Positions 11,708-56,843 of a DNA stretch of 64,000 nt are shown piece by piece. Origin of the DNA: a virus (lineage: Duplodnaviria; Caudoviricetes); IMG/VR virus record IMGVR_UViG_3300035182_001152; one strand, given 5' to 3'. Positions within the stretch are counted from its first letter, which is position 1. Every line of letters starts with the position of its first letter. A model generated the notes under the pieces. That model was given only the letters and a program-made list of their open reading frames with translations, was not told the origin of the DNA and did not search any database. Position numbers and translations under genes: made by a program.

Positions 11708-13036
11708 ATGTCAGCATATCAAATCGACTTCTCAGATCCACTCAAGAATGGTTTTGCCATTTCTGATGGTAGCTTTAACGGCCCAGGTGGCTCCTCTGCA
11801 AATACATCGCTACGGTTGTATGGCCGTGGCGCACGTGAATGGGGTGAGGCAGTTGACGAGGATTTGGTCCGTCTGACTGAAAACTTCGCTGCTGCTTCAG
11901 CACCAAGCGTGCCGATTGCAGGCCAATTCTGGGTTGAATCATCTCTGTACTACCGCGACACATCGCTGGGAAGCGTTCTGCAAGGTTGGTACTTCTACGA
12001 CGTCAATTCTGTAGCAACGAACAAGTGGACACTTCTTGGAGGCACTGGCGTTGTCTCTGGTACAGCTCCTCTGTCGCCAGTTGAAGGACAGTACTACTAT
12101 GACGGTGGTGTTAACCAGCTGCAGGGCTATTTCTCACTTGGCCGCTATGAACCTCTGACATGGGTCACTCGTTCCAGCATGTCAGGTACAGGTGCTCCCG
12201 TATCGCCAGCCGTAGTCCCTCTCCAACAACTTCGTGTGTGGAACGCAGGCACAAGCGCATGGGTTTCCCCTTCTGTCACAGCTGTCACTGGTGGCACCCC
12301 ACCAGTTGGTGCTGTAGTGGGTTCGTTGTGGTTTAACACCACTACAGGTAACCTGCTTGTTTGGACGGGGGCGCAATGGCAACAACTGGTAGGTCCTGCC
12401 ATTTCTGGCGGGACATCAGCTGTCTCTGGTATTCTGAACATGAATACCTACAAGATCACCAACCTCGGCGCCCCGTCAGTTAGTACCGACGCCGCAACCA
12501 AGGGATACGTTGACAGTGTTGTTGGCGGCGTCGGTGGCTTCCTACCGCTAACAGGTGGTAGTCTGGCTGGTCCAGGCAATCTGAGTGTTGGTGGCACGTT
12601 GAACGTTGCAGGACTGGCTACTCTCGGCTCGGGCTACGTAAACTCAACGTTCTACGCTAACGTTGCTACGTTTGGTAGCACGGCAACTTTCAACTCAGGT
12701 CTGACATCTGTTGGTACAATTAACATCACCACTGGTAGCCTAAACGTCGCTGCTGGCGGCGGTAGCTTCAACGGCACGGTCAACGTGAACGGCTACAAGA
12801 TTGTCAATCTTGCAACTGGTACAAACGCCAACGACGCTGTTAACGTAGCACAAATGAATGCTGCCATTGCGGCTGGTGGTGTGGGTGCAACAACACCTGT
12901 AATCTACACCTCAGGCACTTATAAGGCTGGCGACATCTGCATTACCGGCGGTAAGATCTACATAGCAGTCGGTGGCGGTAGCGGTATCGCCCCGGGTGGT
13001 AACTGGAAACAAATCTGGCCTGCAACATACAGCTAA
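11708..13036 (+). CDS. virion structural protein (tail fibre/baseplate type)
   Basis: LYGRGAREWGEAVDEDLVRLTENFA domain, KITNL..DAATKGYVD fibre repeats, Gly/Thr-rich, CATAAATA late promoter upstream. Confidence 0.75.
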   Translation: MSAYQIDFSDPLKNGFAISDGSFNGPGGSSANTSLRLYGRGAREWGEAVDEDLVRLTENFAAASAPSVPIAGQFWVESSLYYRDTSLGSVLQGWYFYDVNSVATNKWTLLGGTGVVSGTAPLSPVEGQYYYDGGVNQLQGYFSLGRYEPLTWVTRSSMSGTGAPVSPAVVPLQQLRVWNAGTSAWVSPSVTAVTGGTPPVGAVVGSLWFNTTTGNLLVWTGAQWQQLVGPAISGGTSAVSGILNMNTYKITNLGAPSVSTDAATKGYVDSVVGGVGGFLPLTGGSLAGPGNLSVGGTLNVAGLATLGSGYVNSTFYANVATFGSTATFNSGLTSVGTINITTGSLNVAAGGGSFNGTVNVNGYKIVNLATGTNANDAVNVAQMNAAIAAGGVGATTPVIYTSGTYKAGDICITGGKIYIAVGGGSGIAPGGNWKQIWPATYS

Positions 13037-13045: not shown

Positions 13046-14455
13046 ATGCCTCAAATCTCTACAACAACATCCGTTCCATCTGGATATGTAATCAGCACGA
13101 TGCAATCAGTCATCACTGCACTGATTGCAGCAATGGCAAGCGGCCAGACGGTGTATGCGTCTGACATTCGCTCAATGAACTCGAGTGTCTATGATCTCTG
13201 GCGAACCCACGCTCACACGGTGACAGACCGCCAAGGTATCGACACTTACGGTAACTTGACCGTGTACGGTAGCGGAGGAACGTCTATCGTCAACACCGCT
13301 TCAAACCTTGCGCTTGGCGCCGTGACAACTCCCTCTGGCATCGCTGCAGATCAAGTGATTACAGCCGCAGACATCAACGTGATGATTAACATGGTCAATT
13401 CCATGCAGTCACACACCCATACGATCACTGATAGTATCGGTGCTATATACTCGTCTCCAAACATCAATTTCTATTTCAATGGTTCTCCTAATCTGATCTC
13501 GGGTACAGACAGTGATGGCACTACCGGTGGCGATTATGCGAACATAACGTTTAAGACAGACGGGACGCTATTTCCCGAGGCACGTGGCACGTATTACTAC
13601 GGTGCAGTACAAGCTAACAACTGGATGACAAACAGCCCTGTTGATGCATTAACAGCTACAGGTTACCAGATTAAGGCACACATGGTAAGCGCAGATCTGG
13701 GGTATTGTCACTGGGGTGCTGGAACGTTTGACGCATGGTTGAATCTTGGTGTTAGTAACCTTGTTTGGTCGTGGGTGCAAAACAACGCGGGCGACTACGG
13801 TCAAGCAGTTGTTCAATTCCAAATCCGCGACATTAACACGCTAACGATTCTTGTTGACACACATGTGACTTTTCAAACCGGCTTTATTGCACCACTATCA
13901 CACTGCTGCTTCCCTGCGGATTCTTTCGTCTTAATGGACGATGGTAAGTGGAAGAAGATTCAAGACGTGAAGGCGGGTGATGTTGCCATGGGTATGGGCA
14001 AGCCCGTGATGATCAACAGCGTAGAGAAGCCACGTCTAGGCGAGCGCAGGATGATGCAATTTGGCGACAAGTCGCTGGCGTGGTCAGAAGAACACGCAAT
14101 GTGGACCCGCGACAACGCAGGTTCACAGTGGTGGTGGTCTGCTAACGCTGATATGTGGCGTGCTGAAGTGAGTGTAGGCGTAATGGGCGGGTTGAAGGAC
14201 AACTCAACGATGCGCTCTGGTACCAATGTGTCTGACTGGGCTCACCTGGATGGCTGGAAGGCTAATACTGTGACTACGATCCCTGCAGACGCAACGACTC
14301 CATTGTATCTCCCACGCACGGGCGGTTCTCCTATTATCGTCAACGGCTACGTTGTTGGCGCTGGTGTTGATGAAACCGGCTTTGAGTACTCAAAGCTGGA
14401 CTGGGATGCTGTACGCGCAATGCTTCCTGTTGTTGACCCACTCCCAACAGCGTAA
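13046..14455 (+). CDS. tail-associated protein with HxH repeats and C-terminal Hint domain
   Basis: THAHTVTD and SHTHTITD motifs; CFPADSFVLMDDGKWKKIQDVKAGD..SEEH..IIVNGYVV Hint fold starting at 13907. Confidence 0.75.
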   Translation: MPQISTTTSVPSGYVISTMQSVITALIAAMASGQTVYASDIRSMNSSVYDLWRTHAHTVTDRQGIDTYGNLTVYGSGGTSIVNTASNLALGAVTTPSGIAADQVITAADINVMINMVNSMQSHTHTITDSIGAIYSSPNINFYFNGSPNLISGTDSDGTTGGDYANITFKTDGTLFPEARGTYYYGAVQANNWMTNSPVDALTATGYQIKAHMVSADLGYCHWGAGTFDAWLNLGVSNLVWSWVQNNAGDYGQAVVQFQIRDINTLTILVDTHVTFQTGFIAPLSHCCFPADSFVLMDDGKWKKIQDVKAGDVAMGMGKPVMINSVEKPRLGERRMMQFGDKSLAWSEEHAMWTRDNAGSQWWWSANADMWRAEVSVGVMGGLKDNSTMRSGTNVSDWAHLDGWKANTVTTIPADATTPLYLPRTGGSPIIVNGYVVGAGVDETGFEYSKLDWDAVRAMLPVVDPLPTA

Positions 14456-14476
14456 GGTAATAACGAGGGAACAGAT

Positions 14477-14680
14477 ATGTCAGAAAACCTAAGTACAAAA
14501 ACGACGACATCCCCTGCGGTTCCGAATGTGAACCCAGGAGACCCAATTACGTCTACCACGTTTGAAGCAATGCTGAACGTGTTGAACGAACTCGTGAACC
14601 ACACTCACATTTTCTACGACGACTACAGCACTGCGTGCAACTGTAACTGCAACTGCGCCTGTTCACGCGGCATCCTCTAA
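14477..14680 (+). CDS. Cys-rich RiPP-precursor-like peptide
   Basis: 67 aa, GAGGGA RBS, ends TACNCNCNCACSRGIL, upstream of the radical SAM genes. Confidence 0.75.
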   Translation: MSENLSTKTTTSPAVPNVNPGDPITSTTFEAMLNVLNELVNHTHIFYDDYSTACNCNCNCACSRGIL

Positions 14681-14698: not shown

Positions 14699-15595
14699 AT
14701 GAAATACATCCTTGTTCGCCAAGGAGGTAATCGTGCTTCTGCCTTCTCAGACATCGTTGAGCAGGTCAATTATCAAGACGTACCCCAGGTTGGCTTCTAC
14801 ACGCAAGTAGCACCGAGTATGCGGTTAATTCGTAACCGCACTACCGACAATCACGATTCCCCCTTTGCGATTGCCCGATTCCACGTCGACCCAGCACTGA
14901 AGGTCCAGCCTCCGTCACACTTTCGTCGAATTGACATGAGGGCTGTCGAACGGATGATGACAAACCACAAGTACGTGATATACGGTGTCGTCAATCCAAC
15001 TCACCACGTAATTGATCACACAGTCCTTGACGGTGCTGTGTACGTCGCGCGGGATGCTGACGGTAAGTTGATCAATGCCCAAACAGGAGATGTCCTTGGT
15101 GACTCCAAGGTAACGTTTATGACGGTGTTCTTTGCGTTTGTGCGCGTCAAGGGGTTGCCGATCTATCTGATGGTACTCAATCCAAATCTACTCAGTGCGA
15201 CGGATGGGTTTGATTGTTATCACGAAGAAACGGACACCAAGTGGATCATGTTGCCGGAACGTGACAACGCGCTGATCGAGCGAGTGTTTACGCCGCAAAT
15301 ATATGACGGCACGTTGATTGGTAATGTGATTGTGCGCGATGAGGGTGATGGACAGCCGATGATCCAACTGTTCAACGATCCATGCGGCATCCTGTACGAC
15401 GAAAAGCACCTTCGCTCTGATGTGTTCATTAACGGTGTCGCAACGATTGATACCAATCTAAGCGTGTTTACAATGGACGGCGCTGTCCGCATTAGCAGTC
15501 AAGGCCGTGGGTACGTTCGAATTGTATTTGACCTTGGTGACTACTTCAATCTGTCACGGACCGAACACCCTGCACTGGAGTACGTCGTACTATGA
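14699..15595 (+). CDS. hypothetical protein of the radical SAM operon
   Basis: 298 aa, ATGA-coupled to the first rSAM. Confidence 0.7.
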   Translation: MKYILVRQGGNRASAFSDIVEQVNYQDVPQVGFYTQVAPSMRLIRNRTTDNHDSPFAIARFHVDPALKVQPPSHFRRIDMRAVERMMTNHKYVIYGVVNPTHHVIDHTVLDGAVYVARDADGKLINAQTGDVLGDSKVTFMTVFFAFVRVKGLPIYLMVLNPNLLSATDGFDCYHEETDTKWIMLPERDNALIERVFTPQIYDGTLIGNVIVRDEGDGQPMIQLFNDPCGILYDEKHLRSDVFINGVATIDTNLSVFTMDGAVRISSQGRGYVRIVFDLGDYFNLSRTEHPALEYVVL

Positions 15596-17262
15596 GCACA
15601 GCTGTCATTAAGTTCTACCCAAAGCGAACACTAACGCAAGCCCAACAGCAACGGATTGTTGATCACCAACCTTCCGTGCGAATCAATGACGACGGCACAT
15701 TTGATACGTCTGTCCGCACAATCATCACCCCAAAAGGCGATGTCAAGGAGGTGTCGTATAAGACGATTCGTCCAGGTGTGCACGAGCGAATGATGAAGAC
15801 AGCTGACGTATATGACTTGTTTGAAGACCTTCAACACATGAACCTGATTGTCACAAACGCGTGTAACCTCAGTTGTTCCTACTGCTACGAGCAGCATAAC
15901 AAAGATTACGGTCGATTCACAAACGAAAGCCTAAAACAGCTATACAACTTCCTCGTCGCGTGCAACCCAAACAGCGGCAAGCTGTTTCAGTTCTTTGGTG
16001 GCGAACCCCTGATCCACAAGCAGTTGATTCTCGATTTTATCGCCAAATATCGTGACGAACTGCAGGCAAACAGTAAGACAACTGCCGTTAGCATTATCAC
16101 CAACGGTATTCTGTTAACGCCAGAATTCATCAACGAGTACTTTGCGAATGACTTCGTTTGTATGAGCGTTAGCCTCGATACGGATGATGCTGAGATTGAT
16201 CACCGTGAGATTGGCCAGGCTCGGATCGACAAAATCATCAACATGATTGGTCTAATCCCCTCGTACCACAAAGACAATCATATGGTTAGCGTCCGTTGCA
16301 CGATCGCAATGGAGAATGCTCCGCGGCTAGTTGAGTTCGCCAAACGCTTGTATGACAAGGGTCTTCGAGCAATGGTAATTCATCCGCTGACGATGAGTTC
16401 CGTTAACGGCCACATGATATGGAATACTGAAGATTGGAACAACCTCCACACTAGCGTTAGCCACATCATCAAGACGCTGCCTAACTTCGAGGTTCAATTC
16501 TCAGAGGGTGTCGGTGCCAAGGGCGGCAACAACTGCATGGTTGGTTCTGACATGATCGCTGTTGACGCGTCGGGTGATTACTCCGGTTGCCATTTCTTCA
16601 CAAACCAGAAGGAGGCGGCCGCTCATACGATCCTTGGTAACTTGCTGCTGGACCAAGTGTACGTTGACCGGTACATGAAGTTCCAAGAAACGTACGACCA
16701 GATGTTCACATCGGAGCCACAATGTCAAGCCTGCGATCTCAAGGGTTTCTGCTACCAATGCCCTGCAGGCAATTCTGATTCTGGTCGTGGCCAGCTGTTC
16801 CGGCCAGACGATATGTGCCAGAGCATTGTACGTCTGTTCCTCGAACTGCAGAATGACATCGTGCGCAAGACATTCAACGCTAAGCTACAGGAGCTGATTG
16901 GTTCTGTACAGCAGTACGGTGAACACTATGTGTTCAGTAAGGCAATTGTACACCTCCACCACTTCTACAAGAATGGTCAGCATGCCACTGACGTTCAAGT
17001 TGATCCCAACCTCCCATACGAATACCTCGCCGCCGGTTTTATGGCAACAATTACCGGTGGCGACGCTAGCGTTCCGGTTGACATCAAGAGTTTGTATGAG
17101 GCGTTGATGCGCAGTAAGGGCAAACCAGTTAACGCGAGTATGGCACAGGGTACAGCTGATGACATCAACAAGCGTATCTTCTACCTAGCCCTACTACACA
17201 TGGTTGTGCTGAACAAGAAGGGTGATGACTTGTCAAAACCGCACAAAATCATTAAGCTGTAA
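15592..17262 (+). CDS. radical SAM/SPASM enzyme 1
   Basis: CNLSCSYC, FFGGEPL, TNG; SPASM CMVG..SGCHFF..CQAC..FCYQCP..C. Confidence 0.92.
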   Translation: MSTAVIKFYPKRTLTQAQQQRIVDHQPSVRINDDGTFDTSVRTIITPKGDVKEVSYKTIRPGVHERMMKTADVYDLFEDLQHMNLIVTNACNLSCSYCYEQHNKDYGRFTNESLKQLYNFLVACNPNSGKLFQFFGGEPLIHKQLILDFIAKYRDELQANSKTTAVSIITNGILLTPEFINEYFANDFVCMSVSLDTDDAEIDHREIGQARIDKIINMIGLIPSYHKDNHMVSVRCTIAMENAPRLVEFAKRLYDKGLRAMVIHPLTMSSVNGHMIWNTEDWNNLHTSVSHIIKTLPNFEVQFSEGVGAKGGNNCMVGSDMIAVDASGDYSGCHFFTNQKEAAAHTILGNLLLDQVYVDRYMKFQETYDQMFTSEPQCQACDLKGFCYQCPAGNSDSGRGQLFRPDDMCQSIVRLFLELQNDIVRKTFNAKLQELIGSVQQYGEHYVFSKAIVHLHHFYKNGQHATDVQVDPNLPYEYLAAGFMATITGGDASVPVDIKSLYEALMRSKGKPVNASMAQGTADDINKRIFYLALLHMVVLNKKGDDLSKPHKIIKL

Positions 17263-18050
17263 TGATGAAAACAACACACATTGCATTTTACCAAGACGCT
17301 CTGTACGACTGTCCTCTTCTCCGTGGTCAGGTGCTAACCGATATCGACGACCTGCGACTGTTCATGGAATATCACGCATTCGCAGTGTGGGATTTCATGT
17401 CGCTGATCAAATCGCTCCAGAACCATATTGTACCGTCGGGCAATGTGTGGCTTCCGTCACCCGAATCGACAGCTGTTGGTCGATTGATCAACGAAATTGT
17501 CCTGTGCGAGGAAACAGACGACAACCTCGGCGGTGGTCATATTAGCCACTTCGATCTGTACATCACTGCGATGAATGAAGTTGGCGCCAACACAAAGCCG
17601 ATCCTGTCATTCATCAACAAACTGCGAACCAATCGCAAGCTCAGCTTAAACCAGTTGCTGCTAGAACTCCCTCTGCCAGCACGGAAGTTCTGTGAGAGTA
17701 CTTTTGCAGTAATTGCTACCGATCAACCCCATAAGATTGCCGGGGCGTTCGCCTTTGGTCGCGAACGGGTAATCCCGTCAATGTTCACGCAGATCCTCTC
17801 TCAGATGGAGGCCACTGGAATCCAAGCACCAAAGTTCAAGTACTACCTTGAGCGTCACATTGACGTTGACGGGAACGCACACGGCCCAGCTGCGCTTGAT
17901 ATGGTTGATTATCTGTGTGGGGATGACCCAGTCAAGCACCTGGAAGCGGAACGAGCTGCATTGGATGCAATCCACGCTCGGATCACGCTATGGAAGGACG
18001 TACAGCGAGTGATTGAAGACGTCAAGCGTGTCAAGTTTGGAGCAGCATGA
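17262..18050 (+). CDS. DUF3050 heme-oxygenase-like (HDO) diiron protein
   Basis: FMEYHAFAVWDFMSLIKSLQ, INEIVLCEETD, SHFDLY, FAFGRE, YLERHIDVD..HGP. Confidence 0.8.
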   Translation: MMKTTHIAFYQDALYDCPLLRGQVLTDIDDLRLFMEYHAFAVWDFMSLIKSLQNHIVPSGNVWLPSPESTAVGRLINEIVLCEETDDNLGGGHISHFDLYITAMNEVGANTKPILSFINKLRTNRKLSLNQLLLELPLPARKFCESTFAVIATDQPHKIAGAFAFGRERVIPSMFTQILSQMEATGIQAPKFKYYLERHIDVDGNAHGPAALDMVDYLCGDDPVKHLEAERAALDAIHARITLWKDVQRVIEDVKRVKFGAA

Positions 18051-19120
18051 CGACACCAACACTCTCCGGATGCAAGAATATCAGCATCTACCTCGGCAAT
18101 GTTTGCAACTTCAATTGCACATATTGTGACAGAGACTACATCAAGGAGTCGATCGGTGGTCAACATATGACCACCGAGGATATTCCAAAGATCGTTGAGT
18201 TCCTCCAAGCTTCTGGTATAGCTGACAACCCCCCGGAAATGTTTAGCTTCCATGGTGGTGAGCCGTTCACATACGTCAAGATCATGGACAAAATCATGGA
18301 CGCAGTAACGTCAGCTGTCCCTGGCGACTATCCGCTATACATTCAAACGAATGGTAGCCAGATGCTTCAGCATCGATGGTTCTTTGAGAAGTGGGGTAGT
18401 CGCCTTGAGATTAGCATCAGCTACGACTTCTTGTACCAAGACATTAACCGCACCCTGTTTGAGATCAACCCTACGCTGGAAATGTTGAACCAGAACGGTG
18501 TTCGTGGAATCCAGTTCCAATACGTGATGCCAATCTCTAATCCGAAGGTGTTTAGCCTATCAGCATTGAAGGCGATCACTAACTTGTGCCACAAGAACGG
18601 TGTCAAACGGGTTAACCTAATCCCACTGCGGCACATTCGGGGCAAAGACAAGTTCAAGGTGATCCTTGACGACCTTGATATTCCACAGTTCTTCGATGCG
18701 TTCATCAAGTTCATCCACATGCTGTATGTGATGAACATTGACGTTACAGTTGATGGTCACGGTGTTGGATTTGACAAGCACTATTTCTACAACCATAAGT
18801 TAATGGTGTTGTCACCAGATGGTAACATCTATCCCGAATACGACTTCCTCGAATACAAGCGCGAAGAGACGATCATCGGTCAGTGGCGAGAGCAGCAAGT
18901 TATCGAGCGTGTCCGTGATAATGAAGATGACATGCTGCAACCGAAGTGTGTTACGTGCCCATCCCGCCCACTGTGTGGGCTAAAGTACTTACATGGGATG
19001 TTTGGTACTGACCCAGCAACGGATAAGTGTGCGCAGTTCTATCAGATGCTGATGGTTACGATCCAGCACGCACAAAAACTAAAACAACAACCAAGCTTCT
19101 TGCATTGGGTCGGAATATGA
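18047..19120 (+). CDS. radical SAM/SPASM enzyme 2
   Basis: CNFNCTYC, FHGGEP, QTNG; C-terminal CVTCPSRPLCG..C. Confidence 0.9.
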   Translation: MTTPTLSGCKNISIYLGNVCNFNCTYCDRDYIKESIGGQHMTTEDIPKIVEFLQASGIADNPPEMFSFHGGEPFTYVKIMDKIMDAVTSAVPGDYPLYIQTNGSQMLQHRWFFEKWGSRLEISISYDFLYQDINRTLFEINPTLEMLNQNGVRGIQFQYVMPISNPKVFSLSALKAITNLCHKNGVKRVNLIPLRHIRGKDKFKVILDDLDIPQFFDAFIKFIHMLYVMNIDVTVDGHGVGFDKHYFYNHKLMVLSPDGNIYPEYDFLEYKREETIIGQWREQQVIERVRDNEDDMLQPKCVTCPSRPLCGLKYLHGMFGTDPATDKCAQFYQMLMVTIQHAQKLKQQPSFLHWVGI

Positions 19121-20301
19121 CAACAGAACAACGGCACTTCACACCCAGTGTACAGAACGTAACGAACTTCAAGGAATACTTCCTACAGTACGACGGGTTG
19201 AATCACGTCAGCCAAGAGCTTGGCTTTTCCCTGTTTAAGCGGTACACGTGTAAAGCAGGATGCAAGATGTGTTACTTGCAGAACGACTGGATCGCTGACG
19301 AAGACTTCGGTATCTTCATTCCAAAGGAAATTGACGATCACACTGAAGCTCGCCTTTTGTCATTCTTTGAAGCGTTTTCTGACGTCGGCACGTATGATGA
19401 TTTGGCATATTTGAAACGAGCGCACCCACACCTGTATGAGTTCTACAAGAAGCACAGCCACCGCCTCGTTAATACATCAATGTCAGACACCGCTTTCATT
19501 CAGCAGTACCCACTGCTGATGAATGAGCTCAACTTCAAGGGAATCTACGAGATTACGTTTAGTGATGTGTTCCTAAACAAAAAGAGTGGTGGCTTAGCGC
19601 ATGATATAGTCAATATGCTGAAGCCTCTCCACGCAAAGATGCCCCTGCTAAAGATCAAGGTTGTACGAATCACACAGGAAGGTGAGAAGTCTGATGCCGT
19701 CAAGAAGGTCGTCGACTATGCACACAGTATTGGCATAGCAGTTGGCCTGCAAGACGATATCGTCAAGGGCGACAACAACAAGTTGAGCCTTGATGTTGCT
19801 GACTACCAAGAGCTGAATTATTTCGCTCAAGGGTCTGAGCCGATGCAGGTCCTATCAGAGATTACCTACCTGCAATACACGTCGTCGTTTATGACCCTGA
19901 CCGACACAGTATCGCCAACAAGTGTTCCATTCTTTGATGTATTGTCAACGGACGACATCAGCGTATTCCTGTACAACTCCTTAGATGCTAAGTTAAAGAC
20001 GTACACCCGATACACCAAGGAAATGGATAACACATGCGGCAACAAGCTGTTCGACTACTTTGCGTACGTATCAACGTCGGTTGTGCTACATCCAAAGTTT
20101 AACTTCATCCCCCGGATGTCGCTGAAGCCGTGGACGGCAATGTACCATAAGCTGATAGCTCAGGGTTGGACGGAGACCAAGCTTGGTCTGTATCGACCGA
20201 ACGGTGAGCCAGTGACACCAATCTTTACGATCAGCACAAAGCCAAAGCAGAAAATCTATCACATCCCAATCAAGTGCACTCCTGTAGGAGCAACTGTATG
20301 A
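19117..20301 (+). CDS. divergent radical SAM-like protein 3
   Basis: CKAGCKMC cluster motif; no GGEP or SPASM cysteines; ATGA-coupled. Confidence 0.65.
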   Translation: MTTEQRHFTPSVQNVTNFKEYFLQYDGLNHVSQELGFSLFKRYTCKAGCKMCYLQNDWIADEDFGIFIPKEIDDHTEARLLSFFEAFSDVGTYDDLAYLKRAHPHLYEFYKKHSHRLVNTSMSDTAFIQQYPLLMNELNFKGIYEITFSDVFLNKKSGGLAHDIVNMLKPLHAKMPLLKIKVVRITQEGEKSDAVKKVVDYAHSIGIAVGLQDDIVKGDNNKLSLDVADYQELNYFAQGSEPMQVLSEITYLQYTSSFMTLTDTVSPTSVPFFDVLSTDDISVFLYNSLDAKLKTYTRYTKEMDNTCGNKLFDYFAYVSTSVVLHPKFNFIPRMSLKPWTAMYHKLIAQGWTETKLGLYRPNGEPVTPIFTISTKPKQKIYHIPIKCTPVGATV

Positions 20302-21584
20302 GTCTGACCAAATTTGAGATCGTTCGCACAGGCGAACATTTCTACTACAACAACGAGAACAACGGCTTGCTGGACGCCAACGGTAACAGCCTTAGCCGTG
20401 CTTTTGTACCCCCAGCTGATTGGAATCAGCTGGAAGACCGATTCGGTCGCACAGATGTTGTCAAGAACCCCGAAACAATCAAGATCACCCTGGGGCACGG
20501 TTGCAATTACAGTTGTGGCTACTGCATGCAAAAGGACATTGGCAATCCCGACGAGCGACCGGTCAATGGTCTAACACCAATGCTGATCAGCAAGATCCGC
20601 CGCCACCTGGATCTGTCTGAGACGACACGGATTGAACTGTGGGGCGGTGAAACGCTACTGTATTGGAAAGACATGATGCCGATCATGGAAGAATTTGATC
20701 GTGAGGGAGTTACTTGGTACATCCCAACCAATGGTACTCCCCTGATGCACAAGCACATTGACTTCTTCATGAGGTTGAAGGGCAGGGTTGCAATGGGGAT
20801 CTCTCATGATGGGCCTGCGCATGAGATTACGCGAGGCAAGGAGTTCCTGCACAAGAAGGTTGACGTGTTCAAGCGGATCGAAACGGAGTGTGGTGAGCAG
20901 GTACAGTACAGCTTCAACCCCGTTATCAGTCGTACAAATTACGATCTGTTCGAGATCAACGACTTCTTTGTTCGATTCTTTGACGAGCACAGCTTGAAGT
21001 ACAAACAGCTGAGTTTCGAACTCGGGCGCGTGTACGACGAGACGATGGCAAAGAACTCAACGCACCACGTGATCAATGGTGAGCATATCCCAGCGTATAG
21101 GGACGTTCTGACGCGATACATGGATGCTCATATTGAGCAATTCCAACGGCTTGGTGGGGTTACACAAGCTCCCCTACTGGCGAACAATCTGTTCCATACA
21201 GGCATGGGCGTTCTCCCGTATGTGCGTTCGCTGCAGGAGCAAAAGGTTCCCTTGTTGAAGACGAACTGCGGGGTGGACGACAGTCGGTTGATGAGCATGG
21301 ACACGATGGGCAACGTCCGCACCTGCCAAAACACCGACGAATCGTACAATGGCGGCAACTTGATGTACATCAAGGGCATTCGAATCCAACGTGTTGATCT
21401 CAATCGTGATGCACACTGTGGGTCATGTGAAGTCCGTCGTCTCTGCAAGAGCTCATGCCCACTTGACCTCGGATCGGCAACGTTCCAAACCAATTGTGCT
21501 GTTGAGAAGACGCACTACCGGGCGATCCAGTTGGCTGCATTCAAGTTGTTGTTTGACAGTGAGATTCGCATGATTGGCCAGTGA
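20298..21584 (+). CDS. radical SAM/SPASM enzyme 4
   Basis: CNYSCGYC, LWGGETL, PTNG; CGVDD..RTCQN..CGSCEVRRLCKSSCP..NC. Confidence 0.9.
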   Translation: MSLTKFEIVRTGEHFYYNNENNGLLDANGNSLSRAFVPPADWNQLEDRFGRTDVVKNPETIKITLGHGCNYSCGYCMQKDIGNPDERPVNGLTPMLISKIRRHLDLSETTRIELWGGETLLYWKDMMPIMEEFDREGVTWYIPTNGTPLMHKHIDFFMRLKGRVAMGISHDGPAHEITRGKEFLHKKVDVFKRIETECGEQVQYSFNPVISRTNYDLFEINDFFVRFFDEHSLKYKQLSFELGRVYDETMAKNSTHHVINGEHIPAYRDVLTRYMDAHIEQFQRLGGVTQAPLLANNLFHTGMGVLPYVRSLQEQKVPLLKTNCGVDDSRLMSMDTMGNVRTCQNTDESYNGGNLMYIKGIRIQRVDLNRDAHCGSCEVRRLCKSSCPLDLGSATFQTNCAVEKTHYRAIQLAAFKLLFDSEIRMIGQ

Positions 21585-45890: not shown

Positions 45891-46175
45891 TCGAACTCCT
45901 TGACGGGAATGATCCGGTACCACTTTTTCATCACGTACAGCCAGATGCCGCCGTGCTTGAAGAACTTCGGTGACCGCCAGACCAATTTCATCATTTCACC
46001 CGCAACACAGTGACCGCCAGGTCGGCGAAGTGGACCACATCGACAACTACGACTAGGTGGTCACGCACGCGAACCTTTTCACCGATTCGTGGCAGCACCT
46101 CGAGGTGGCGCCGCAGTCCATCAAAGGGAGTGGCGTTGGTAGATCTAACCAACGATTGGAATTCTGTCAACACGC

Positions 46176-46409
46176 TCATGCTCGCTCTCCGCTGCTGCTG
46201 GATGTGTGCCATACTGTTTGGATGCACTGCTCGCGCAACACTCGCAGCTCTTCTTCCAGCTCCTGGATTCGACGTGCTGCAGCGCGCATGTCTGCACCTG
46301 CAAGGTACACAGTACCTGACTTCTTGTCTTCATACGTCAGTAACATTGGATACATGGTCAGACGGGCAACTAGCTGCTCACTGGTCAGCGGCGGGTTGGA
46401 GCGTGCCAT
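46176..46409 (-). CDS. hypothetical protein
   Basis: 77 aa, AARRIQELEEEL coiled coil. Confidence 0.5.
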   Translation of the reverse strand: MARSNPPLTSEQLVARLTMYPMLLTYEDKKSGTVYLAGADMRAAARRIQELEEELRVLREQCIQTVWHTSSSSGERA

Positions 46410-46467
46410 TTGTGTACTTTCAGAGCTGTTAAACGATGACCGACTATAGAGGAAGGCGACTCCGTAG

Positions 46468-47001
46468 TCAATTTTGGGTCAAATCGATTGTTGGCATCGG
46501 AAAGCCGTACTTGACCATGAAGGGATCGGGTTTCATTCGATCCAAATCAGCAACTTTTTCTTCCCGGGGGGCGGGATGATTCTTGATCTGCGCGGACGAG
46601 AACAACACGCCCATTGCATCGCGCGCTGTTGCAGCACGTCGTGCCTTAAAGATTTCGTTGTATTTGCGTATCCGTTCCGGATACTTGTCGCTTGCTGCCT
46701 TATACGTATCGGGAGGCAGCGGAGATGGATCGCCAAACGAATTGGGATTTGTAGCGCGATTCTCGTCTCTGACAGTACGTGCCTCTTCCCGGGTCTCACA
46801 CTCTGCAATCTTCGTGTATTTGACGGAGGACATGTCTCCGTTATACAGAGCGCGGAACCGTACGTCAAACCGTGTCACTTCCGAGGCAGTAGTTCGAGCG
46901 CTGCTGAATTCGAGCCATTCTTTGGCCTTGTCCAGGCCACCTTCAACGTATCCAATGTAAACTGGGTCTTGCGACCCTTTCGCTGCGTATACTGTAAACA
47001 C
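46468..47001 (-). CDS. hypothetical protein, possibly degenerate GIY-YIG
   Basis: FTVYAAK..PVYIGYV N-terminus. Confidence 0.5.
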   Translation of the reverse strand: MFTVYAAKGSQDPVYIGYVEGGLDKAKEWLEFSSARTTASEVTRFDVRFRALYNGDMSSVKYTKIAECETREEARTVRDENRATNPNSFGDPSPLPPDTYKAASDKYPERIRKYNEIFKARRAATARDAMGVLFSSAQIKNHPAPREEKVADLDRMKPDPFMVKYGFPMPTIDLTQN

Positions 47002-47274
47002 ACTAGTCTCCGGAAGTTGTGATAATCAACCTTCCGAGAAATCGGTTATCCAGTAAACAACCAATAAAAGGGGAACGCCTGTGGCTCGTGGCCACAGGCG
47101 TTCCATGTTGGGGAGGTTACCTGACCTTGATCAGGCTGAAGCAGCCACCCACGCTGCCGGCGGTAGACACAAGGGCCCACGGCCAAAACGCAGACTCCGT
47201 GACGCTCCAGTCGGAGATCCAGCCGCCGAGCAGAAACACGGCAATGGAAACCAAAGTTGAGCAAATTATGAATT

Positions 47275-47697
47275 TCATGCGGACACCAGTTGCGTCAGAT
47301 TGACGCCCTCGCGATGAGCGAACGAGAGGTTCTCGTACGAAATCGTCACCAGGCCTGCGCGCCGGAGTTCTTCCAGGGGCAGGAGGATGGCGGTCAGGTA
47401 TTCCATCGCCTCGTTCACGTAGTCGTTGGTCAGATCCTCAACGTCCTCACCCTCGGCGGCGAGCAGCATCATCGTCAGGACGATCATGTCGCGGCCCGCT
47501 TGATCCTCAGCAGCAGCTTCAGTGACGTGATGTTGGACTTGCGCAGCGACCTTGTTGAGATCGTGCACATCGAACAGCGACAGGCCAGACAGCCAATCGC
47601 CGAGCGTGAGGTAGTTGCCGACGTTCTCACGCAGTCGGAGCTGCAGACGTGCGACAGCCTTGGCTGCCACGTCCGACAGATTGTTTTCTTGTTCCAT
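47275..47697 (-). CDS. hypothetical protein
   Basis: GAGGA RBS before ATG 47697. Confidence 0.6.
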   Translation of the reverse strand: MEQENNLSDVAAKAVARLQLRLRENVGNYLTLGDWLSGLSLFDVHDLNKVAAQVQHHVTEAAAEDQAGRDMIVLTMMLLAAEGEDVEDLTNDYVNEAMEYLTAILLPLEELRRAGLVTISYENLSFAHREGVNLTQLVSA

Positions 47698-47848
47698 TAC
47701 GCACGCCTTCCTCTTTGCAGTTGCTCTTATGAAAGCTGAATGTGCATCAACTCTCATATCGTACCCGTGAGGGTAAACACCCATTGCCACATCGAAAGTA
47801 GAAGCTCCGTTGGACGTTCCCCCGTCCAACGGACTCCGCGGCGATCGA

Positions 47849-48058
47849 TCAGCGCTTGCGAGTGGTAGGCGCGAACAGCGGCTTGGCGTTGTTGGTCGAC
47901 GTCGACGTCTTGGACAGGCCGGTGCCGACACCGGGGCCGTTGTCATGGACCACGACCTGCGGCTGCTGGTAGATCACCTGCGGTTGCGGTGAGGGGCCAC
48001 AGCCGATCAGGGGTATTGCCATCACGGCAACGGCGAGCATGGTAAGGCGGAATTTCAC
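47849..48058 (-). CDS. small lipoprotein
   Basis: Signal peptide with lipobox LIGC. Confidence 0.55.
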   Translation of the reverse strand: MKFRLTMLAVAVMAIPLIGCGPSPQPQVIYQQPQVVVHDNGPGVGTGLSKTSTSTNNAKPLFAPTTRKR

Positions 48059-48172
48059 AAGCGATCTCCTCTTGGATATGTGACAGAAGCGAGTCTACCG
48101 ATTCCCACGCTTAGTAGCAAATCGGTAGATTTAGGGTAAACCCAGCGGCCTCGCTATTAGGTGTTGGGAGTA

Positions 48173-48733
48173 TCAAATAGTCGGGTCAAACGCGTTTGAC
48201 AGATTCTCACGCTGCTGTTCCGGCGTTTGCTTAATGCCATAGCATTTGTCGATCGCTTGAAGAACAACAGCAGTAATGTGGTTGAACACCGCATCCGTCC
48301 CGCCAAGTTCGCCGCTACTCTCGATGATGTCTCGTAGACATTGATTCAAGTGCCCCTCGATGCACATCGCGTTCTTGATGTCCTGCGCTGACGGTGCGGG
48401 AGTGTTTTCAACGAGGATCGATTCCCACTTGGTCGTCTTTGAGTCGAGGTAGTCTTCCAGCATCTCTGCCAGCTCCGCTCCCGTCTTGTTGGGATAGACG
48501 AGGGCTGCGAGGGCGATTGCGTTCTGGATCACGTCCGCTACTTCACCAATCACCGGCTCCTTGAGCGTCTTGTGTGGCAGATTGCCGAGGCTGTGATTTA
48601 CGGCCTCAGATAGCTCCCCCACTTCTTCCATTAGCTTAAAGCCAACGCCTTCAATGCCCTTGAAGTCTCGGCGCGACATGCCGACGATTCGGTCGACCGT
48701 CTGATACAGTGATGGGTGCTTAATGACTTCCAT
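48173..48733 (-). CDS. MazG-like nucleotide pyrophosphohydrolase
   Basis: KLMEEVGELSEAV..EVADV. Confidence 0.75.
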   Translation of the reverse strand: MEVIKHPSLYQTVDRIVGMSRRDFKGIEGVGFKLMEEVGELSEAVNHSLGNLPHKTLKEPVIGEVADVIQNAIALAALVYPNKTGAELAEMLEDYLDSKTTKWESILVENTPAPSAQDIKNAMCIEGHLNQCLRDIIESSGELGGTDAVFNHITAVVLQAIDKCYGIKQTPEQQRENLSNAFDPTI

Positions 48734-49190
48734 CGTCTGCCCCACAGTCACACGAGTGGCCGCAAGCGTCTTGGCCAGCAAAGTAGTGCTCGGCCCACTG
48801 TGCATGCAGAGGGAAGCAGATCGGGGTGTTGGCATCGATCGCAACCAGCTCTTGAACTTCGTCGTTCTTGACGAACAATTCCAGCGCTTCCAAGGGGAGC
48901 GCGTATTCGGCCGCCAGCATGATCAGCAGACGATTGGTCGGCGTCACTTCCGTGCCAGCAACGATCCAATGTTCCGCAGGGATGTGCAGGCCGGTTTCCT
49001 CTTCGAGTTCCCGCGCCATTGCGGCCTCTGCGGTTTCACCCGCATTAAGGTAGCCTCCGGGGAAGGCGATCCCGCCAATTTGCGGCTCGATGTTGCGGCG
49101 AACACCGAGCAGAAAGGTATCACCAGTCTTTTCGTTGACGAGTTCGATGATGCCGACGGCGACGGGGACGGGGTTGTTGTATTGTTCCAC
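48720..49190 (-). CDS. Nudix hydrolase
   Basis: PGGYLNAGETAEAAMARELEEETGL Nudix box. Confidence 0.9.
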   Translation of the reverse strand: MEQYNNPVPVAVGIIELVNEKTGDTFLLGVRRNIEPQIGGIAFPGGYLNAGETAEAAMARELEEETGLHIPAEHWIVAGTEVTPTNRLLIMLAAEYALPLEALELFVKNDEVQELVAIDANTPICFPLHAQWAEHYFAGQDACGHSCDCGADDGSH

Positions 49191-49604
49191 GGTGATCCTT
49201 TATTTCATGAGAAGTTGCGTTGTTGCCGAAACAAGCACGACAACGACGGGGGGAGTGCGACAGTCCACGATGGGCGCATGGGTGGCGACATGCAGAGGAT
49301 TGAATTGAACCGTTGGTATGCAAATACGCCGTACCCGACTAGCATTGCACCAACGTACCACCCAAGGCCGAACACTAGGGCGTGTTTGATGATTTCCGAC
49401 ATCAGTTCATCCTGCAGGTAGAGACGAACATCGCCGTCCCGTTTGTGCCGCGGGTGACTTGGCTCGTCATCGTCGTGCTGTAGCAACTGTCTGAGTACTT
49501 CTTGTACTGTTGCGTCACCTCATGACGGTAGCCGTAAAAGTACGAACCCAAGAAGGCAGCAGCCAACAGCACGAGAATCGCAGCAACGGATGCGTATAGC
49601 TTGA

Positions 49605-50036
49605 TCATTTGATTTCCTTGATAGAGCCGTAGTCGTATTCGTATTTGACGTTTGGCTTGATTCCGTCAACGCCCACGGTGAACACAATTACCGTTTCGTT
49701 GAACCCCATTGGATACCACAGCTCGAATGTTGCACCATCGCCACCCGATACTGTTCCGTAGTCATGCAACACGGCAGTTCCACCAGCGCCGGTTACAACT
49801 TCACCACCGGCACCTGCTTCTGATCGCCCAAAGTTTCCTGATTGGGCAACCCCGTACAATCCTGCCTTTGCCGCGCCGTGATCGCCGACGATCGATGTGC
49901 CGTAGCGACCTGAGATTGCTGTTCCACAGTTTCCAGCAACGGCGCGAGCAAGGTTGCCGTCGCCTGTGTGAGCTAGCTCGTTGTCACCAACGATGACAAC
50001 TTGATTGTCCATTCCCTTGCGCGACATCAGGTCCAC
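49605..50036 (-). CDS. Gly/Ala-rich short-repeat protein
   Basis: Repeating octamer-like xGxxGxA units; VGVDGIKPNVKY end. Confidence 0.6.
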   Translation of the reverse strand: MDLMSRKGMDNQVVIVGDNELAHTGDGNLARAVAGNCGTAISGRYGTSIVGDHGAAKAGLYGVAQSGNFGRSEAGAGGEVVTGAGGTAVLHDYGTVSGGDGATFELWYPMGFNETVIVFTVGVDGIKPNVKYEYDYGSIKEIK

Positions 50037-50192
50037 CCCAGGGCTACAGCGGCGAGCACGGATACAGCAATTACACTAAGAACGATCCACATTCCGGTGT
50101 TGCTTTCCGCGGCGGTGCCGCTATCATATTCAATCATCACAGGCTCCCTCGTTCGTTAGATGAGTCTACTGTACCGAAACCCAAAAATAGAT

Positions 50193-50486
50193 TCAACCAA
50201 AAATTGGGCCGGCGTACTGAACTCCAGTTGCTGGTTTTGGTAGGTGTTGTTCGTCGGAAGGGTGCATTTCACCGGCAGCACGGCCAAGGGTGCCGTAATA
50301 CTCATCATCTTCCACTGCAATGACGGCAATCTGCTTCATCGTCTGTTGGTAAGTCGGCGAAGGGTTTTGGTTTTTGATCACCATACAGTGTGTGCTCTCA
50401 CCAGCAGCCTCACGGTCGAGCTTAGACAGTAGGGCTAGCAAATTCCGACGGCTAAGATATACTTTTGGCGTTGAATTCGTGATCAT
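50193..50486 (-). CDS. hypothetical protein
   Basis: 97 aa. Confidence 0.55.
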   Translation of the reverse strand: MITNSTPKVYLSRRNLLALLSKLDREAAGESTHCMVIKNQNPSPTYQQTMKQIAVIAVEDDEYYGTLGRAAGEMHPSDEQHLPKPATGVQYAGPIFG

Positions 50487-50688
50487 TTGATTTATCCTGA
50501 TTCCCCATCATCACTATCTCTCCACAGGGGGACAACTTCCGATAAGTGTTACATCCCAATCCCCAGAGCTCCAATGACACAACAGGTTGACTTGTCAACC
50601 GGCGTACACTTGGTAGGTGACACCATGCTCCCAAAGAGATACGTTGACGATGCTGTTGTAACTGAAAGGCGTCTCCCAGCGCCTTTGA

Positions 50689-51858
50689 TTATGACAGATG
50701 GATCCGAGCGAAATTTCGCTTACCTACTTGCATCACGTAGGTGCCTGGTTCGATCACGCGCCTTTTGTCTTGCTCGACCACACCGTCGATGCGGATCCCA
50801 CGCTGTTCGATCTTTCGCCCGGCTTCAGACATCGAGGGGCACAGGCCAGATTCCTTTAGCAAGGATGTGACAGGACGAGCGCCGCCTGATGCATAGAAGT
50901 CGCGCACTTCTGCCGGAATTCCACCGTTAGAACGGTTGACAAAGTCGTCATGCGCACGATCTGCCAGTTCTGCGGAATGGAACCGCGTAACCAGTTCTTT
51001 TGCAAAGGTGACCTTGATGTCTCGGCAGTTGACATCAGAACGACGAACAAGGGCTTGCGCGACCAGCTGTCCGTTACCGCTGAGCAGCGGAATCCAATCC
51101 CACATCAGCTTGTCGCTGATTGCCATCACCTGCGAGAACATCTGTTCGGGTGGCGTAGCAACACCGATGTAGTTGTTCTTCGACTTCGACATCTTGTGCG
51201 TGCCGTCCGTCCCGACCAGCAGCGGCATCGTCAGAATGCACTGCGGAGATAGCCCGTAGGCTTCTTGCAGCTGACGACCAACCATCAGGTTGAACGTCTG
51301 ATCTGTGCCACCGATCTCCAAGTCCGCATTGAGTGCGACGGAATCGTAGCCTTGTAGCAGGGGGTACAGGAACTCGTGGATGCTAATTGGAGTTTGAGCC
51401 TGCAGCCGCTTGGCGAAATCGTCCCGCTCAAGCATTCGAGCGACAGTGTGCTTGGCAGCGAGTTCGACCAGCCCACGTGCACCAAGCGCGTTGCACCACT
51501 CGCTGTTCCAGCGGACCTCCGTCTTCGATTGGTCGAGCACCTTCCACGCTTGATCGCAGTACGTCTCCGCGTTCAGTTGAATCTGATGGTGAGACAGTAC
51601 CGGTCGGGTGGAGTTGCGGCCAGACGGATCGCCAATCGCGGCTGTGAAGTCACCGATTAGCAGAATTACCGTATGCCCAAGATCCTGCAGTTGCCGTAGC
51701 TTCTGCAGGACGACGACGTGCCCGAAGTGAATGTCGGGAGCGGTTGGGTCGAACCCGAGCTTGATCCGAAGCGGCACGCCGGTCTGTTGGGACTTCAGCA
51801 GCTTCTTTTCCCACTCGTCGCGCGGCGTCAGAGAGACGCTACCCGCGATAGTGGTCAT
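50689..51858 (-). CDS. tyrS: tyrosyl-tRNA synthetase
   Basis: GFDPTAPDIHFGH (HIGH-like), LQGYDSV, GGTDQ.FN, KMSKS, C-terminal S4 domain VGKR. Confidence 0.95.
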   Translation of the reverse strand: MTTIAGSVSLTPRDEWEKKLLKSQQTGVPLRIKLGFDPTAPDIHFGHVVVLQKLRQLQDLGHTVILLIGDFTAAIGDPSGRNSTRPVLSHHQIQLNAETYCDQAWKVLDQSKTEVRWNSEWCNALGARGLVELAAKHTVARMLERDDFAKRLQAQTPISIHEFLYPLLQGYDSVALNADLEIGGTDQTFNLMVGRQLQEAYGLSPQCILTMPLLVGTDGTHKMSKSKNNYIGVATPPEQMFSQVMAISDKLMWDWIPLLSGNGQLVAQALVRRSDVNCRDIKVTFAKELVTRFHSAELADRAHDDFVNRSNGGIPAEVRDFYASGGARPVTSLLKESGLCPSMSEAGRKIEQRGIRIDGVVEQDKRRVIEPGTYVMQVGKRNFARIHLS

Positions 51859-52346
51859 GAACGGTTGTTCAACAGCCGGGATGATCACACGCCGTCCCTG
51901 AACAGCTTGACGAGTCCGACGATCACGGTTATGCCAAACAGCATGTAGAAGCCGAACACCACTCCTGCGCCAATCAGTGCGCCCGTCAGGAACGCGCTGC
52001 AGCTCAGACCACCAATAAAGGCGCCGATTGCAGCGCCTGCACACATCCATTTCAACATTGTTTTTCTCCTGTGAAAATCCGTATACGTGAGCAGGTTGGT
52101 GAATCGATGTGTTACACTTACACCAGCAGTCAGCATGTCCCTTATCCGGAAAGGTCCACGTTTATCTAACGCCCTGCTCGTTACGCAGGATAACCGAAGC
52201 TCAAATCCAACTCTGCTCGCGTATACAGACGAGGATGGGGCTGTGATTCTGGCCGCCCCACCTTTTTGACGTTTCCAGGCAAACAGTGCAGCAATACGTA
52301 GCACCACACGTATTGCTGCTGGATTATGAGACCAGCAGCAAATCGC

Positions 52347-52586
52347 TTACTTGCGACGGGCCGGGAAGCCGTTGTCGTGACCGCCGGAGCGGCTGTTGTA
52401 CGAGTGCGTGCGTTCGTTCGCACGTTCGCCGAACTTCGGATGATCCGGGCCCTTCGACACGGTGAACTTGTAGTGCTCCGGCTTGTCGTCCTTTGCGGGG
52501 ACCTTCGCACCGCGAGCGACCTTCGCCGCCTCCTTGGTTTCGAAGTATTGGACCGGGGTGGTGTTCAGTTGATAGATGCGCTTCAT
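52347..52586 (-). CDS. small basic hypothetical protein
   Basis: GGAG RBS, MKRIYQLN. Confidence 0.55.
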   Translation of the reverse strand: MKRIYQLNTTPVQYFETKEAAKVARGAKVPAKDDKPEHYKFTVSKGPDHPKFGERANERTHSYNSRSGGHDNGFPARRK

Positions 52587-52649
52587 GGCCTTTGCTCCAC
52601 GCTGTTGATGAAAATTGTTCGGACATTGCCCATTAGGCAATCTGCGAAC

Positions 52650-53160: not shown

Positions 53161-53429
53161 TCGTTCAACCGATGAATCTATTCTATGGAGAAACCCTAAT
53201 TAACGCAACCGACTAACGGGTGTAAACGTAAACCAGCGGAGATGGCCGATCACCACGTTGTTCTGCTTGATCGTCAGGCGAGCCCCAACCGCCCATGCAA
53301 CAGCAAGAGCAGACAGTAGCAACCCGATCAGGATCACAGCCAGCACGACCATCGCTGGGACGAGTACGCAAGCTAGTGCGATCTTTGCAACTGCACCAAA
53401 GAATTGACCGAGCACGATCAGTAGTTGTT

Positions 53430-53612: not shown

Positions 53613-53663
53613 TTTACGTCACCAGTTACACAAAGTACTGATATCGTATAGGTCACCCTGTTA

Positions 53664-55208: not shown

Positions 55209-55220
55209 GTGTACTCCTTG

Positions 55221-55523: not shown

Positions 55524-55538
55524 CTATACACCTTCGGT

Positions 55539-56840: not shown

Positions 56841-56843
56841 CGA

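What the first reader, a model, noticed from the sequence alone, without database searches (positions are those of the whole stretch)
13904..14455. C-terminal Hint domain on a tail protein: autoprocessing, possibly ligation, next to the RiPP genes
Seen: ..APLSHC-CFPADSFVLMDDGKWKKIQDV (block A at 13907), SEEH (block B-like) and IIVNGYVV with no terminal His-Asn, followed by about 35 more residues. Established: Hedgehog/BIL-type Hint domains make an N-terminal thioester that is cleaved or transferred to a nucleophile rather than spliced. Inference: the fibre is released ending at ..SHC and might be joined to a small molecule or to the modified peptide encoded next door.
Basis: partly seen in the sequence, partly recalled or inferred. 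Interest (0 to 1): 0.68.

Follow-up and report, generated by a model that had tools for sequence, protein, structure and literature searches.

The report
Self-cleaving Hint cap on phage fibre
A tail-fibre-type protein of an uncultured large phage ends in a genuine intein-like (Hint) domain that most likely cuts itself off the finished fibre; the domain belongs to a large, phage-specific family I found in no paper, and its tie to the neighbouring radical-SAM genes is real but indirect, not a ligation.

Summary
ORF 13046-14455 (469 aa) carries a C-terminal Hint domain that starts exactly at Cys288. It has block A (CFPADSFVLMDDG) and block B (S347-E-E-H350). Gly438-Ala439 sit where relatives have His-Asn, and a 30-residue tail follows. 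The AlphaFold model (pLDDT 92.5) matches BIL2/BUBL, Prp8 intein, Hedgehog HhC and C. thermocellum BIL.

In 150 family representatives Cys1 is invariant, and block B Ser/Thr and His are each kept in 149. The domain sits at or near the C-terminal end, behind unrelated fibre-like N-termini. The most likely mechanism is an N-S acyl shift at Cys287|Cys288 followed by N-terminal cleavage, which releases a fibre of about 287 residues. No cleavage has been shown.

The ligation idea is disfavoured. The same peptide/radical-SAM cassette occurs in related phages whose orthologue lacks Hint, and one such orthologue stops about 8 residues past the predicted cut.

The link to the "RiPP" genes is real. In relatives a (Cys-x)n ladder lies directly before Hint Cys1, or on the separate 67-aa peptide as here, and it co-occurs with a radical SAM gene (17/17 against 2/26 loci).

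This scan has noted Hint-capped phage fibres before on other DNA. I rate it a new variant of a known kind.

The parts
13046..14455 (+). Whole gene: fibre-type protein with C-terminal Hint cap (469 aa, P0001)
   Evidence: start supported by homologues that begin MPQ(R/I/V)..
13046..13906 (+). Predicted mature part, residues 1-287: two helix+HxH modules (about 13151-13228 and 13355-13429) and a beta-domain (residues about 160-280)
   Evidence: phrog_31780 on residues 5-129; AF2 full-length model has helices 38-53 and 107-120 before HAH/HTH and a beta-sandwich at 207-278; the Hint-less orthologue L151 ends about 8 residues past the position aligned to the cut site
13904..13909 (+). Predicted scissile junction Cys287|Cys288
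   Evidence: family conservation begins exactly at Cys288; Cys1 is invariant in 150/150; the -1 residue is Thr 62, Ser 59, Cys 19
13907..14365 (+). Hint fold proper, residues 288-440: block A 13907-13990, block B S347-H350 at 14084-14095, 'IIVNGYVVGAG' at 14333-14365 with G438-A439 in place of His-Asn
14366..14452 (+). Family-specific C-terminal tail (VDETGFEYSKLDW.. and a short helix), part of the domain and not an extein
   Evidence: D/E447, Y448 and W453 are conserved in over 80% of 150 representatives; modelled at pLDDT 73-93
14477..14680 (+). 67-aa protein: HxH module plus C-terminal Cys ladder ACNCNCNCAC-S-RGIL
   Evidence: 67 clusters of homologues with a near-invariant C-terminal half; it is the split counterpart of the ladders fused before Hint in relatives
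15592..21584 (+). Radical SAM block: rSAM/SPASM 15592-17262, DUF3050 17262-18050, rSAM 18047-19120, CxxxCxxC protein 19027-20301, rSAM 20274-21584
   Evidence: 20274-21584 is homologous over its full length to the single rSAM beside the ladder-Hint fibre of phage JWF (E 2e-29)
11708..13036 (+). Upstream fibre protein (442 aa), its stop 10 nt before the Hint gene's start
   Evidence: tail-fibre PHROGs, YadA-stalk and T7-tail-fibre motifs

Best explanation
P0001 is a distal tail-fibre-type structural protein made as a precursor with a removable C-terminal Hint cap. Cys288 attacks the Cys287 carbonyl, assisted by block B Ser347 and His350, and converts the peptide bond into a thioester. There is no C-terminal Asn and no downstream extein, so nothing can splice. 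The thioester is resolved by water or a thiol, which releases a fibre subunit of about 31 kDa ending ..PLSHC and a free Hint fragment of about 20 kDa. The cap is a mobile, phage-specific module found on many unrelated fibre and receptor-binding proteins. It probably plays the role that self-cleaving C-terminal intramolecular chaperone domains play on other fibres: it helps or times assembly, then exposes the true C-terminal tip. Shown: the fold, the catalytic residues, the module boundary, the distribution and the optional presence. Inferred: that cleavage occurs, and the assembly role.
For: Fold and motifs. Catalytic residues under strict selection: Cys1 150/150, Ser/Thr 149/150, His 149/150. 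His-Asn is replaced by Gly-Ala. Conservation starts exactly at Cys288, behind N-termini that are unrelated to one another. These include gp38-adhesin and Collar domains, collagen repeats and T4 gp36-like fibre repeats, and range from a few to 2400 aa. In phage JWF the gene sits right after the tail-tip genes, and in the podovirus PSTNGR1 directly after two large unannotated genes and four genes before the terminase gene. Orthologues in the same cassette lack the cap, and one ends about 8 residues beyond the predicted cut, so the N-terminal 287 residues form a complete functional unit. Only 2 full-length members turned up in one genome from each of 185,579 prokaryote species, one of them also listed as a viral contig, against 137 cluster representatives at E<1e-30 in metagenomes.
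Against: No experiment or virion proteomics exists for any member. This protein alone is below Pfam thresholds. A chaperone or trimerisation role is argued only by analogy; I folded the monomer only. The nearest solved fold, BIL2 of BUBL, does not simply hydrolyse but passes its cargo to lysines (PMC8616854). I did not identify any residue that would activate water or another nucleophile; I did not look for one.
Confidence: 0.62

Rival explanations
1. Thioester transfer rather than hydrolysis. The Hint cap hands the fibre's C-terminus to a nucleophile. Candidates are a lysine of another virion protein (as BIL2/BUBL does), a small molecule (as Hedgehog does with cholesterol), or a group on the host surface.
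For: The best structural matches are BIL2 of BUBL, reported to form Lys isopeptides with other proteins (PMC8616854), and Hedgehog HhC. The conserved Trp-rich insert (QWWWSAN..) and the C-terminal tail are additions to the minimal Hint fold and have no assigned role.
Against: No acceptor is identifiable. The cap is optional among orthologues in the same cassette. Fold similarity at 12-13% identity says nothing about the fate of the thioester.
Confidence: 0.17
2. Ligation to the neighbouring 67-aa Cys-ladder peptide. This would recreate, after translation, the fibre-ladder fusion that relatives encode directly.
For: In relatives the ladder is covalently continuous with a fibre and ends right at Hint Cys1. 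Here the ladder is on a separate peptide encoded 21 nt downstream.
Against: The peptide and its four rSAM genes occur with Hint-less orthologues in three other lineages. The peptide's N-terminal 30 residues are variable, with no conserved Cys or Lys. In the fused relatives the ladder lies N-terminal of the cut and is not an acceptor. The shared reading frame of the two ORFs here is not kept in L004 (coordinates).
Confidence: 0.05
3. Self-removing presentation domain for the radical SAM enzyme. Where a Cys ladder precedes it, the Hint cap holds or presents the ladder to the rSAM/SPASM enzyme as a follower peptide would, then excises itself.
For: The ladder ends in register with Hint Cys1 (..CNCNC[S/T]|C) in many lineages. 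The minimal cassette is ladder-Hint fibre plus one rSAM gene starting 9-150 nt downstream. Ladder or peptide with rSAM: 17/17, against 2/26 without (Fisher p = 4e-10).
Against: It does not apply to this window's protein, which has no ladder (only Cys287). The cap is equally conserved in about 24 loci without any rSAM. The separate peptide is presumably modified without a Hint.
Confidence: 0.1
4. Non-cleaving Hint-fold domain kept on the fibre as a structural or binding tip, or a decaying intein remnant.
For: Cleavage is unproven. One divergent member (L106) has Tyr at the block B His position.
Against: Near-absolute conservation of Cys1, Ser/Thr and His across 150 representatives clustered at 50% identity is not expected for a remnant or a pure binding domain. 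The domain is not inserted in a conserved host site and has no extein.
Confidence: 0.06

Closest known systems
Bacterial intein-like (BIL) domains: C. thermocellum BIL (PDB 2lwy) and BIL2 of the Tetrahymena BUBL1 locus (6tmm, 6y75)
   Same: Hint fold (best Foldseek hits). Cys1 and block B His. Found in variable surface or secreted proteins rather than at conserved enzyme sites. Autoprocessing without a homing endonuclease.
   Different: 12-14% identity. The solved BIL2 entries are labelled C1A-N143A, so that domain has a C-terminal Asn; here Gly-Ala replaces His-Asn. This family carries a Trp-rich insert and a conserved 30-aa tail, lies at or near the C-terminal end, and is essentially phage-restricted. 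BIL2 conjugates cargo to lysines (PMC8616854); nothing of that kind is shown here.
Hedgehog C-terminal autoprocessing domain (HhC, PDB 1at0)
   Same: A C-terminal Hint that does only the N-terminal reaction at an X-Cys-Phe junction. No Asn and no splicing. The Hint core is followed by an extra C-terminal segment.
   Different: 11% identity. There is no evidence of a sterol-recognition region or a lipid acceptor. The -1 residue is Thr/Ser/Cys, whereas Hedgehog has Gly (from my memory, not checked here). The cargo is a prokaryotic virus fibre.
C-terminal intramolecular chaperone domains of phage fibres and spikes (Peptidase_S74: K1F endosialidase, T5 pb1)
   Same: Position and presumed logic: a self-cleaving C-terminal module on trimeric fibres that is absent from the mature particle. 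This is established knowledge, not tested here.
   Different: No sequence or fold relation (no Pfam hit). A different chemistry is expected here (Cys thioester).
Pretoxin HINT of polymorphic toxins (Zhang et al. 2012, PMC3482391)
   Same: A Hint peptidase on filamentous stalks that can include phage tail-fibre repeats.
   Different: There the Hint precedes and releases a C-terminal toxin. Here nothing follows the domain except its own tail, and PF07591 gave no hit.
CrpC/CrpA of Methanococcus voltae (PMC13692751) and PapB-type ranthipeptide maturases
   Same: A SPASM radical SAM enzyme acting on a Cys-rich protein. This is precedent for the neighbouring cassette; rSAM 15592-17262 best matches the PapB family (E 1e-36, below cut-off).
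   Different: It concerns the neighbouring genes and not the Hint domain. No chemistry has been shown for the phage ladder.

Membership tests
Hint superfamily (Hedgehog/intein fold) | Hint beta-fold | tested here: met
   AF2 pLDDT 92.5. Foldseek PDB: the first 15 ranked hits, and nearly all listed, are Hint domains, E down to 3e-6.
Hint superfamily (Hedgehog/intein fold) | Nucleophile (Cys/Ser) as first residue; block B Thr/Ser-x-x-His | tested here: met
   Cys1 150/150; Ser 141 plus Thr 8, and His 149, of 150. The HMMER alignment to 8w20 and PI-SceI starts at Cys1.
Inteins | C-terminal Asn/Gln (block G His-Asn) followed by a +1 Cys/Ser/Thr of a C-extein; insertion in a conserved host protein | tested here: not met
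   Gly438-Ala439 align to the His-Asn of tandem-Hint relatives. No position near the C-terminus reached the 80% conservation threshold as Asn. The ORF stops 30 residues later. The N-terminal partners are unrelated to each other.
Type A BIL domains | C-terminal His-Asn (or equivalent) without a +1 nucleophile | tested here: not met
   Same as above. Tandem relatives such as P0044 and P0119 do keep His-Asn.
Hedgehog/Hog proteins | Sterol-recognition region and cholesterol transfer | not testable with these tools
   A conserved 30-aa tail exists, but nothing links it to sterols. The hosts are bacteria.
Pretoxin HINT (PF07591) | Match to the model, with a toxin domain downstream | tested here: not met
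   No PF07591 hit for this protein or for 19 relatives. No downstream domain.
Peptidase_S74 intramolecular chaperone | Sequence match to the family | tested here: not met
   No Pfam hit. Functional analogy only.
Phage tail fibre / receptor-binding protein | Fibre-type domains or position in the tail module | tested here: inconclusive
   The protein's own N-terminus hits only phrog_31780 of unknown function. Neighbours 11708 and 21654 are fibre-like. Family members carry gp38, Collar, collagen and gp36-like parts, and in JWF the gene sits in the tail-tip module. No virion data.

The most novel reading that the evidence does not exclude
The Hint cap is not a mere disposable protease. It would be a thioester generator that phages use for covalent chemistry at the fibre tip. 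It could fix the fibre's new C-terminus to another virion protein or to a host-surface nucleophile, as BIL2 does with lysines. In ladder-bearing relatives it could work together with the radical SAM enzyme to build a chemically modified Cys-Asn tip. That would be a previously undescribed post-translational maturation pathway for phage receptor-binding proteins.
Probability: 0.15. Interest if true: 0.82.

Novelty: new variant of a known kind. Interest (0 to 1): 0.55.

Why it matters
Fibre tips decide phage host range, and how they mature matters for engineering them. C-terminal self-cleaving chaperone domains of the S74 type are textbook material. A second, unrelated solution based on Hint thioester chemistry appears to be widespread: 137 cluster representatives (50% identity) at E<1e-30, on putative siphovirus (by tail-gene layout), podovirus and T4-like replication-gene backgrounds. 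Five of my seven literature searches were aimed at Hint domains on phage fibres, and none found a description. The family also gives a clean handle on the Cys-ladder/radical-SAM system. In relatives the cut would leave the ladder as the very end of the fibre. Cultured phages (Achromobacter JWF and 2-1, Providencia PSTNGR1) carry members, so cleavage and any modification can be tested directly by virion mass spectrometry. A compact, N-cleaving, Asn-less Hint domain could also be useful as a protein-engineering tool.

Tried and rejected
(2) No whole genome is held for the window, so I could not count Hint caps elsewhere in this phage.
(3) Literature: seven searches ran and one was rejected for syntax. 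Hint domains in phages turned up only as terminase or RNR inteins, or as toxin-releasing HINT. The JWF-related papers do not mention the domain.
(4) Intein or read-through reading: the 67-aa ORF is in the same frame as P0001 behind a single TAA, but the frames differ in the L004 relative (coordinates). With no His-Asn and no +1 nucleophile, I rejected this.
(5) The 298-aa protein (14699-15595) as a possible leader peptidase: no Pfam, PHROG or NCBIfam hit and no usable Atlas lead. It is unrelated to the 240-aa protein at the same place in JWF.
(6) The full-length AF2 model is poor outside the Hint and beta-domains (pLDDT 68.6), as expected for a monomer of a trimeric fibre. I ran no fold search on it.

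Full report
WHAT IS THERE. ORF 13046-14455 (+) encodes 469 residues. Its stop-to-start distance from the upstream fibre-like gene (11708-13036; tail-fibre PHROGs, YadA-stalk and T7-fibre motifs) is 10 nt. The window belongs to a large uncultured phage with T4-type replication genes: UvsW-like helicase, clamp loader and DNA polymerase. The same protein was seen on a contig of 206 kb.

IS IT A HINT DOMAIN. On its own the protein gives only sub-threshold Pfam hits (E 0.002-0.06). Homologues settle the matter. Forty proteins share residues 280-469 at 49-64% identity, yet their N-termini are unrelated to each other. In the alignment, conservation switches on exactly at Cys288. A profile of 19 domain sequences from viral contigs (A2) hits PDB intein and Hint chains from position 1: 8w20 at 2e-7, PI-SceI at 6e-7, and more weakly gp41-1, Prp8, Hedgehog and 2lwy. 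All 19 members hit PF05203 and 17 hit PF01079. The AF2 model of residues 288-469 is confident (pLDDT 92.5, pTM 0.90). Its best PDB matches are BIL2 of Tetrahymena BUBL1, Prp8 inteins, Hedgehog HhC and the C. thermocellum BIL domain. In BFVD the best matches are uncharacterised phage proteins auto-named 'Hint domain containing protein', plus the PSTNGR1 protein.

CATALYTIC ANATOMY. An exhaustive profile search found 2507 representatives at E<1e-3 and 137 at E<1e-30. In 150 full-length domain matches, Cys1 is invariant, the block B Ser/Thr is present in 149 and the His in 149. The residue before the cut is Thr (62), Ser (59) or Cys (19). No Asn is conserved near the end. Tandem-Hint relatives (P0044, P0119) end each unit with ..DGYLVHNKG, which aligns to ..NGYVVGAGV here, so Gly438-Ala439 occupy the His-Asn positions. 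The domain can therefore make the N-terminal thioester, but it cannot carry out Asn cyclisation or splicing. It has two family-specific additions: a Trp-rich helix insert (QWWWSAN..) and a conserved C-terminal tail (..GFDYxxLDW).

WHERE THE FAMILY LIVES. In almost all listed representatives the domain lies within about 10-50 residues of the C-terminus, behind N-terminal parts ranging from a few to 2400 residues. Partners include the gp38 adhesin and Collar domains, collagen-like repeats (L007) and T4 gp36-like fibre repeats in Achromobacter phage JWF. In JWF the gene follows the tail-tip genes. In the podovirus Providencia PSTNGR1 it follows two large unannotated genes and lies four genes before the terminase gene. 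A scan of one genome from each of 185,579 prokaryote species found only two full-length members, a Caballeronia contig that is also listed among the viral contigs and a Chloroflexi MAG fragment. The family is thus a mobile, phage-specific fibre cap.

LINK TO THE RADICAL SAM GENES. The protein in JWF reads ..NCNCDCNCNCS|CFPAG.., a Cys-x ladder that runs in register into Hint Cys1. The same layout recurs in many independent loci and in about 34 of 151 representatives. I scored loci that had enough downstream sequence. All 17 loci with a ladder, or with the separate ladder peptide, had a radical SAM gene within about 3 kb. Only 2 of 26 loci without a ladder had one (Fisher p = 4e-10). Some loci are close relatives, so the independent count is smaller. 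Five ladder loci with under 2 kb of downstream sequence were left out, and one of the two exceptions, L023, has a Cys/Asn-rich stretch further upstream. JWF's single rSAM is homologous over its full length to the window's fourth rSAM, 20274-21584 (E 2e-29). The window's first rSAM best matches PapB-type ranthipeptide maturases, below cut-off. A SPASM enzyme that installs ranthionine on a Cys-rich protein has been published (PMC13692751, abstract only). In the window the ladder is not on the Hint protein. It is on the 67-aa ORF at 14477-14680, a family of 67 clusters with a near-invariant ..HTHIFYDDYSTACNCNCNCAC[S/T]RGIL end.

DOES THE CAP LIGATE THE FIBRE TO THAT PEPTIDE. Probably not. Contigs fetched with the peptide show the same cassette: peptide, the 298-aa protein in most (no hit in L153; L154 ends too early), and four rSAM genes where the sequence reaches that far. 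They differ in the upstream protein. L149 and L069 have the Hint cap. In L151/L152 the orthologue is 294 aa with both HxH modules and the beta-domain, and it stops about 8 residues past the position aligned to ..APLSH|C. L153/L154 and L155 keep only the HxH modules. So the cap is optional for the cassette. The Hint-less orthologue also shows that the first 287 or so residues form a complete unit, which is what a cut at Cys287|Cys288 would release. The peptide offers no conserved Cys or Lys at its variable N-terminus. Transfer of the thioester to some other nucleophile cannot be excluded, because the closest solved fold, BIL2, forms lysine isopeptides (PMC8616854).

VERDICT. The best reading, at about 0.6, is a self-removing C-terminal Hint cap on a phage fibre subunit that carries out an N-terminal cleavage only. 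It is functionally analogous to the S74 intramolecular chaperone domains but unrelated to them. It is a new variant of the BIL/Hedgehog kind of Hint domain. This scan has met Hint-capped phage fibres before on other DNA, including the JWF-type ladder-Hint-rSAM layout. No cleavage has been demonstrated for any member.

Noticed in passing
P0044, P0063, P0112, P0117, P0119, P0136, P0160, P0168 (library proteins): Long proteins with 4-7 tandem Hint units; in the two examined (P0044, P0119) the units keep the C-terminal His-Asn (..VHNKG..). In P0119 a CGGGCSCGCGC stretch precedes the next unit's Cys1, so Cys ladders before Hint are not confined to the Asn-less family.
   Followed up: partly
window 19027-20301 (+): A 424-aa protein with a CKAGCKMC (CxxxCxxC) motif but no Pfam or NCBIfam hit. 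It hits only phrog_36229 of unknown function. It is probably a fourth, divergent radical SAM enzyme of the cassette.
   Followed up: partly
window 14453-14479: The 67-aa ORF is in the same reading frame as the Hint gene, separated by one TAA and seven codons. The frames differ in the L004 relative, so I take this as coincidence.
   Followed up: yes
L093:608-1729; L090:5554-6510: Fibre-like proteins in which proline runs separate several (Cys-Asp/Ala/Asn)n arrays (..ACDCACACDCACAPPPPPP..) before the Hint cap, each with an rSAM gene starting 33-54 nt downstream.
   Followed up: partly
L106:63-929: A divergent family member with SPEEY in place of SEEH (block B His replaced by Tyr). It still has an rSAM gene 383 nt downstream and may be an inactivated cap.
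   Followed up: no
window 13151-13228, 13355-13429 and 14555-14630: The helix-plus-HxH module occurs twice in the Hint protein and once in the 67-aa peptide (..MINMVNSMQSHTHTITD and ..MLNVLNELVNHTHIFYDD). It is reminiscent of the metal-binding HxH motifs of T4 fibres, which I recall from memory and did not test.
   Followed up: partly
window 46000-64000; 50689-52050 (-): G+C rises from about 0.50 to 0.60 in the last 18 kb. The region includes a phage-type tyrosyl-tRNA synthetase and a MazG-like pyrophosphatase. Of the ten sampled ORFs between 28 and 64 kb, the other eight have no PHROG hit.
   Followed up: no
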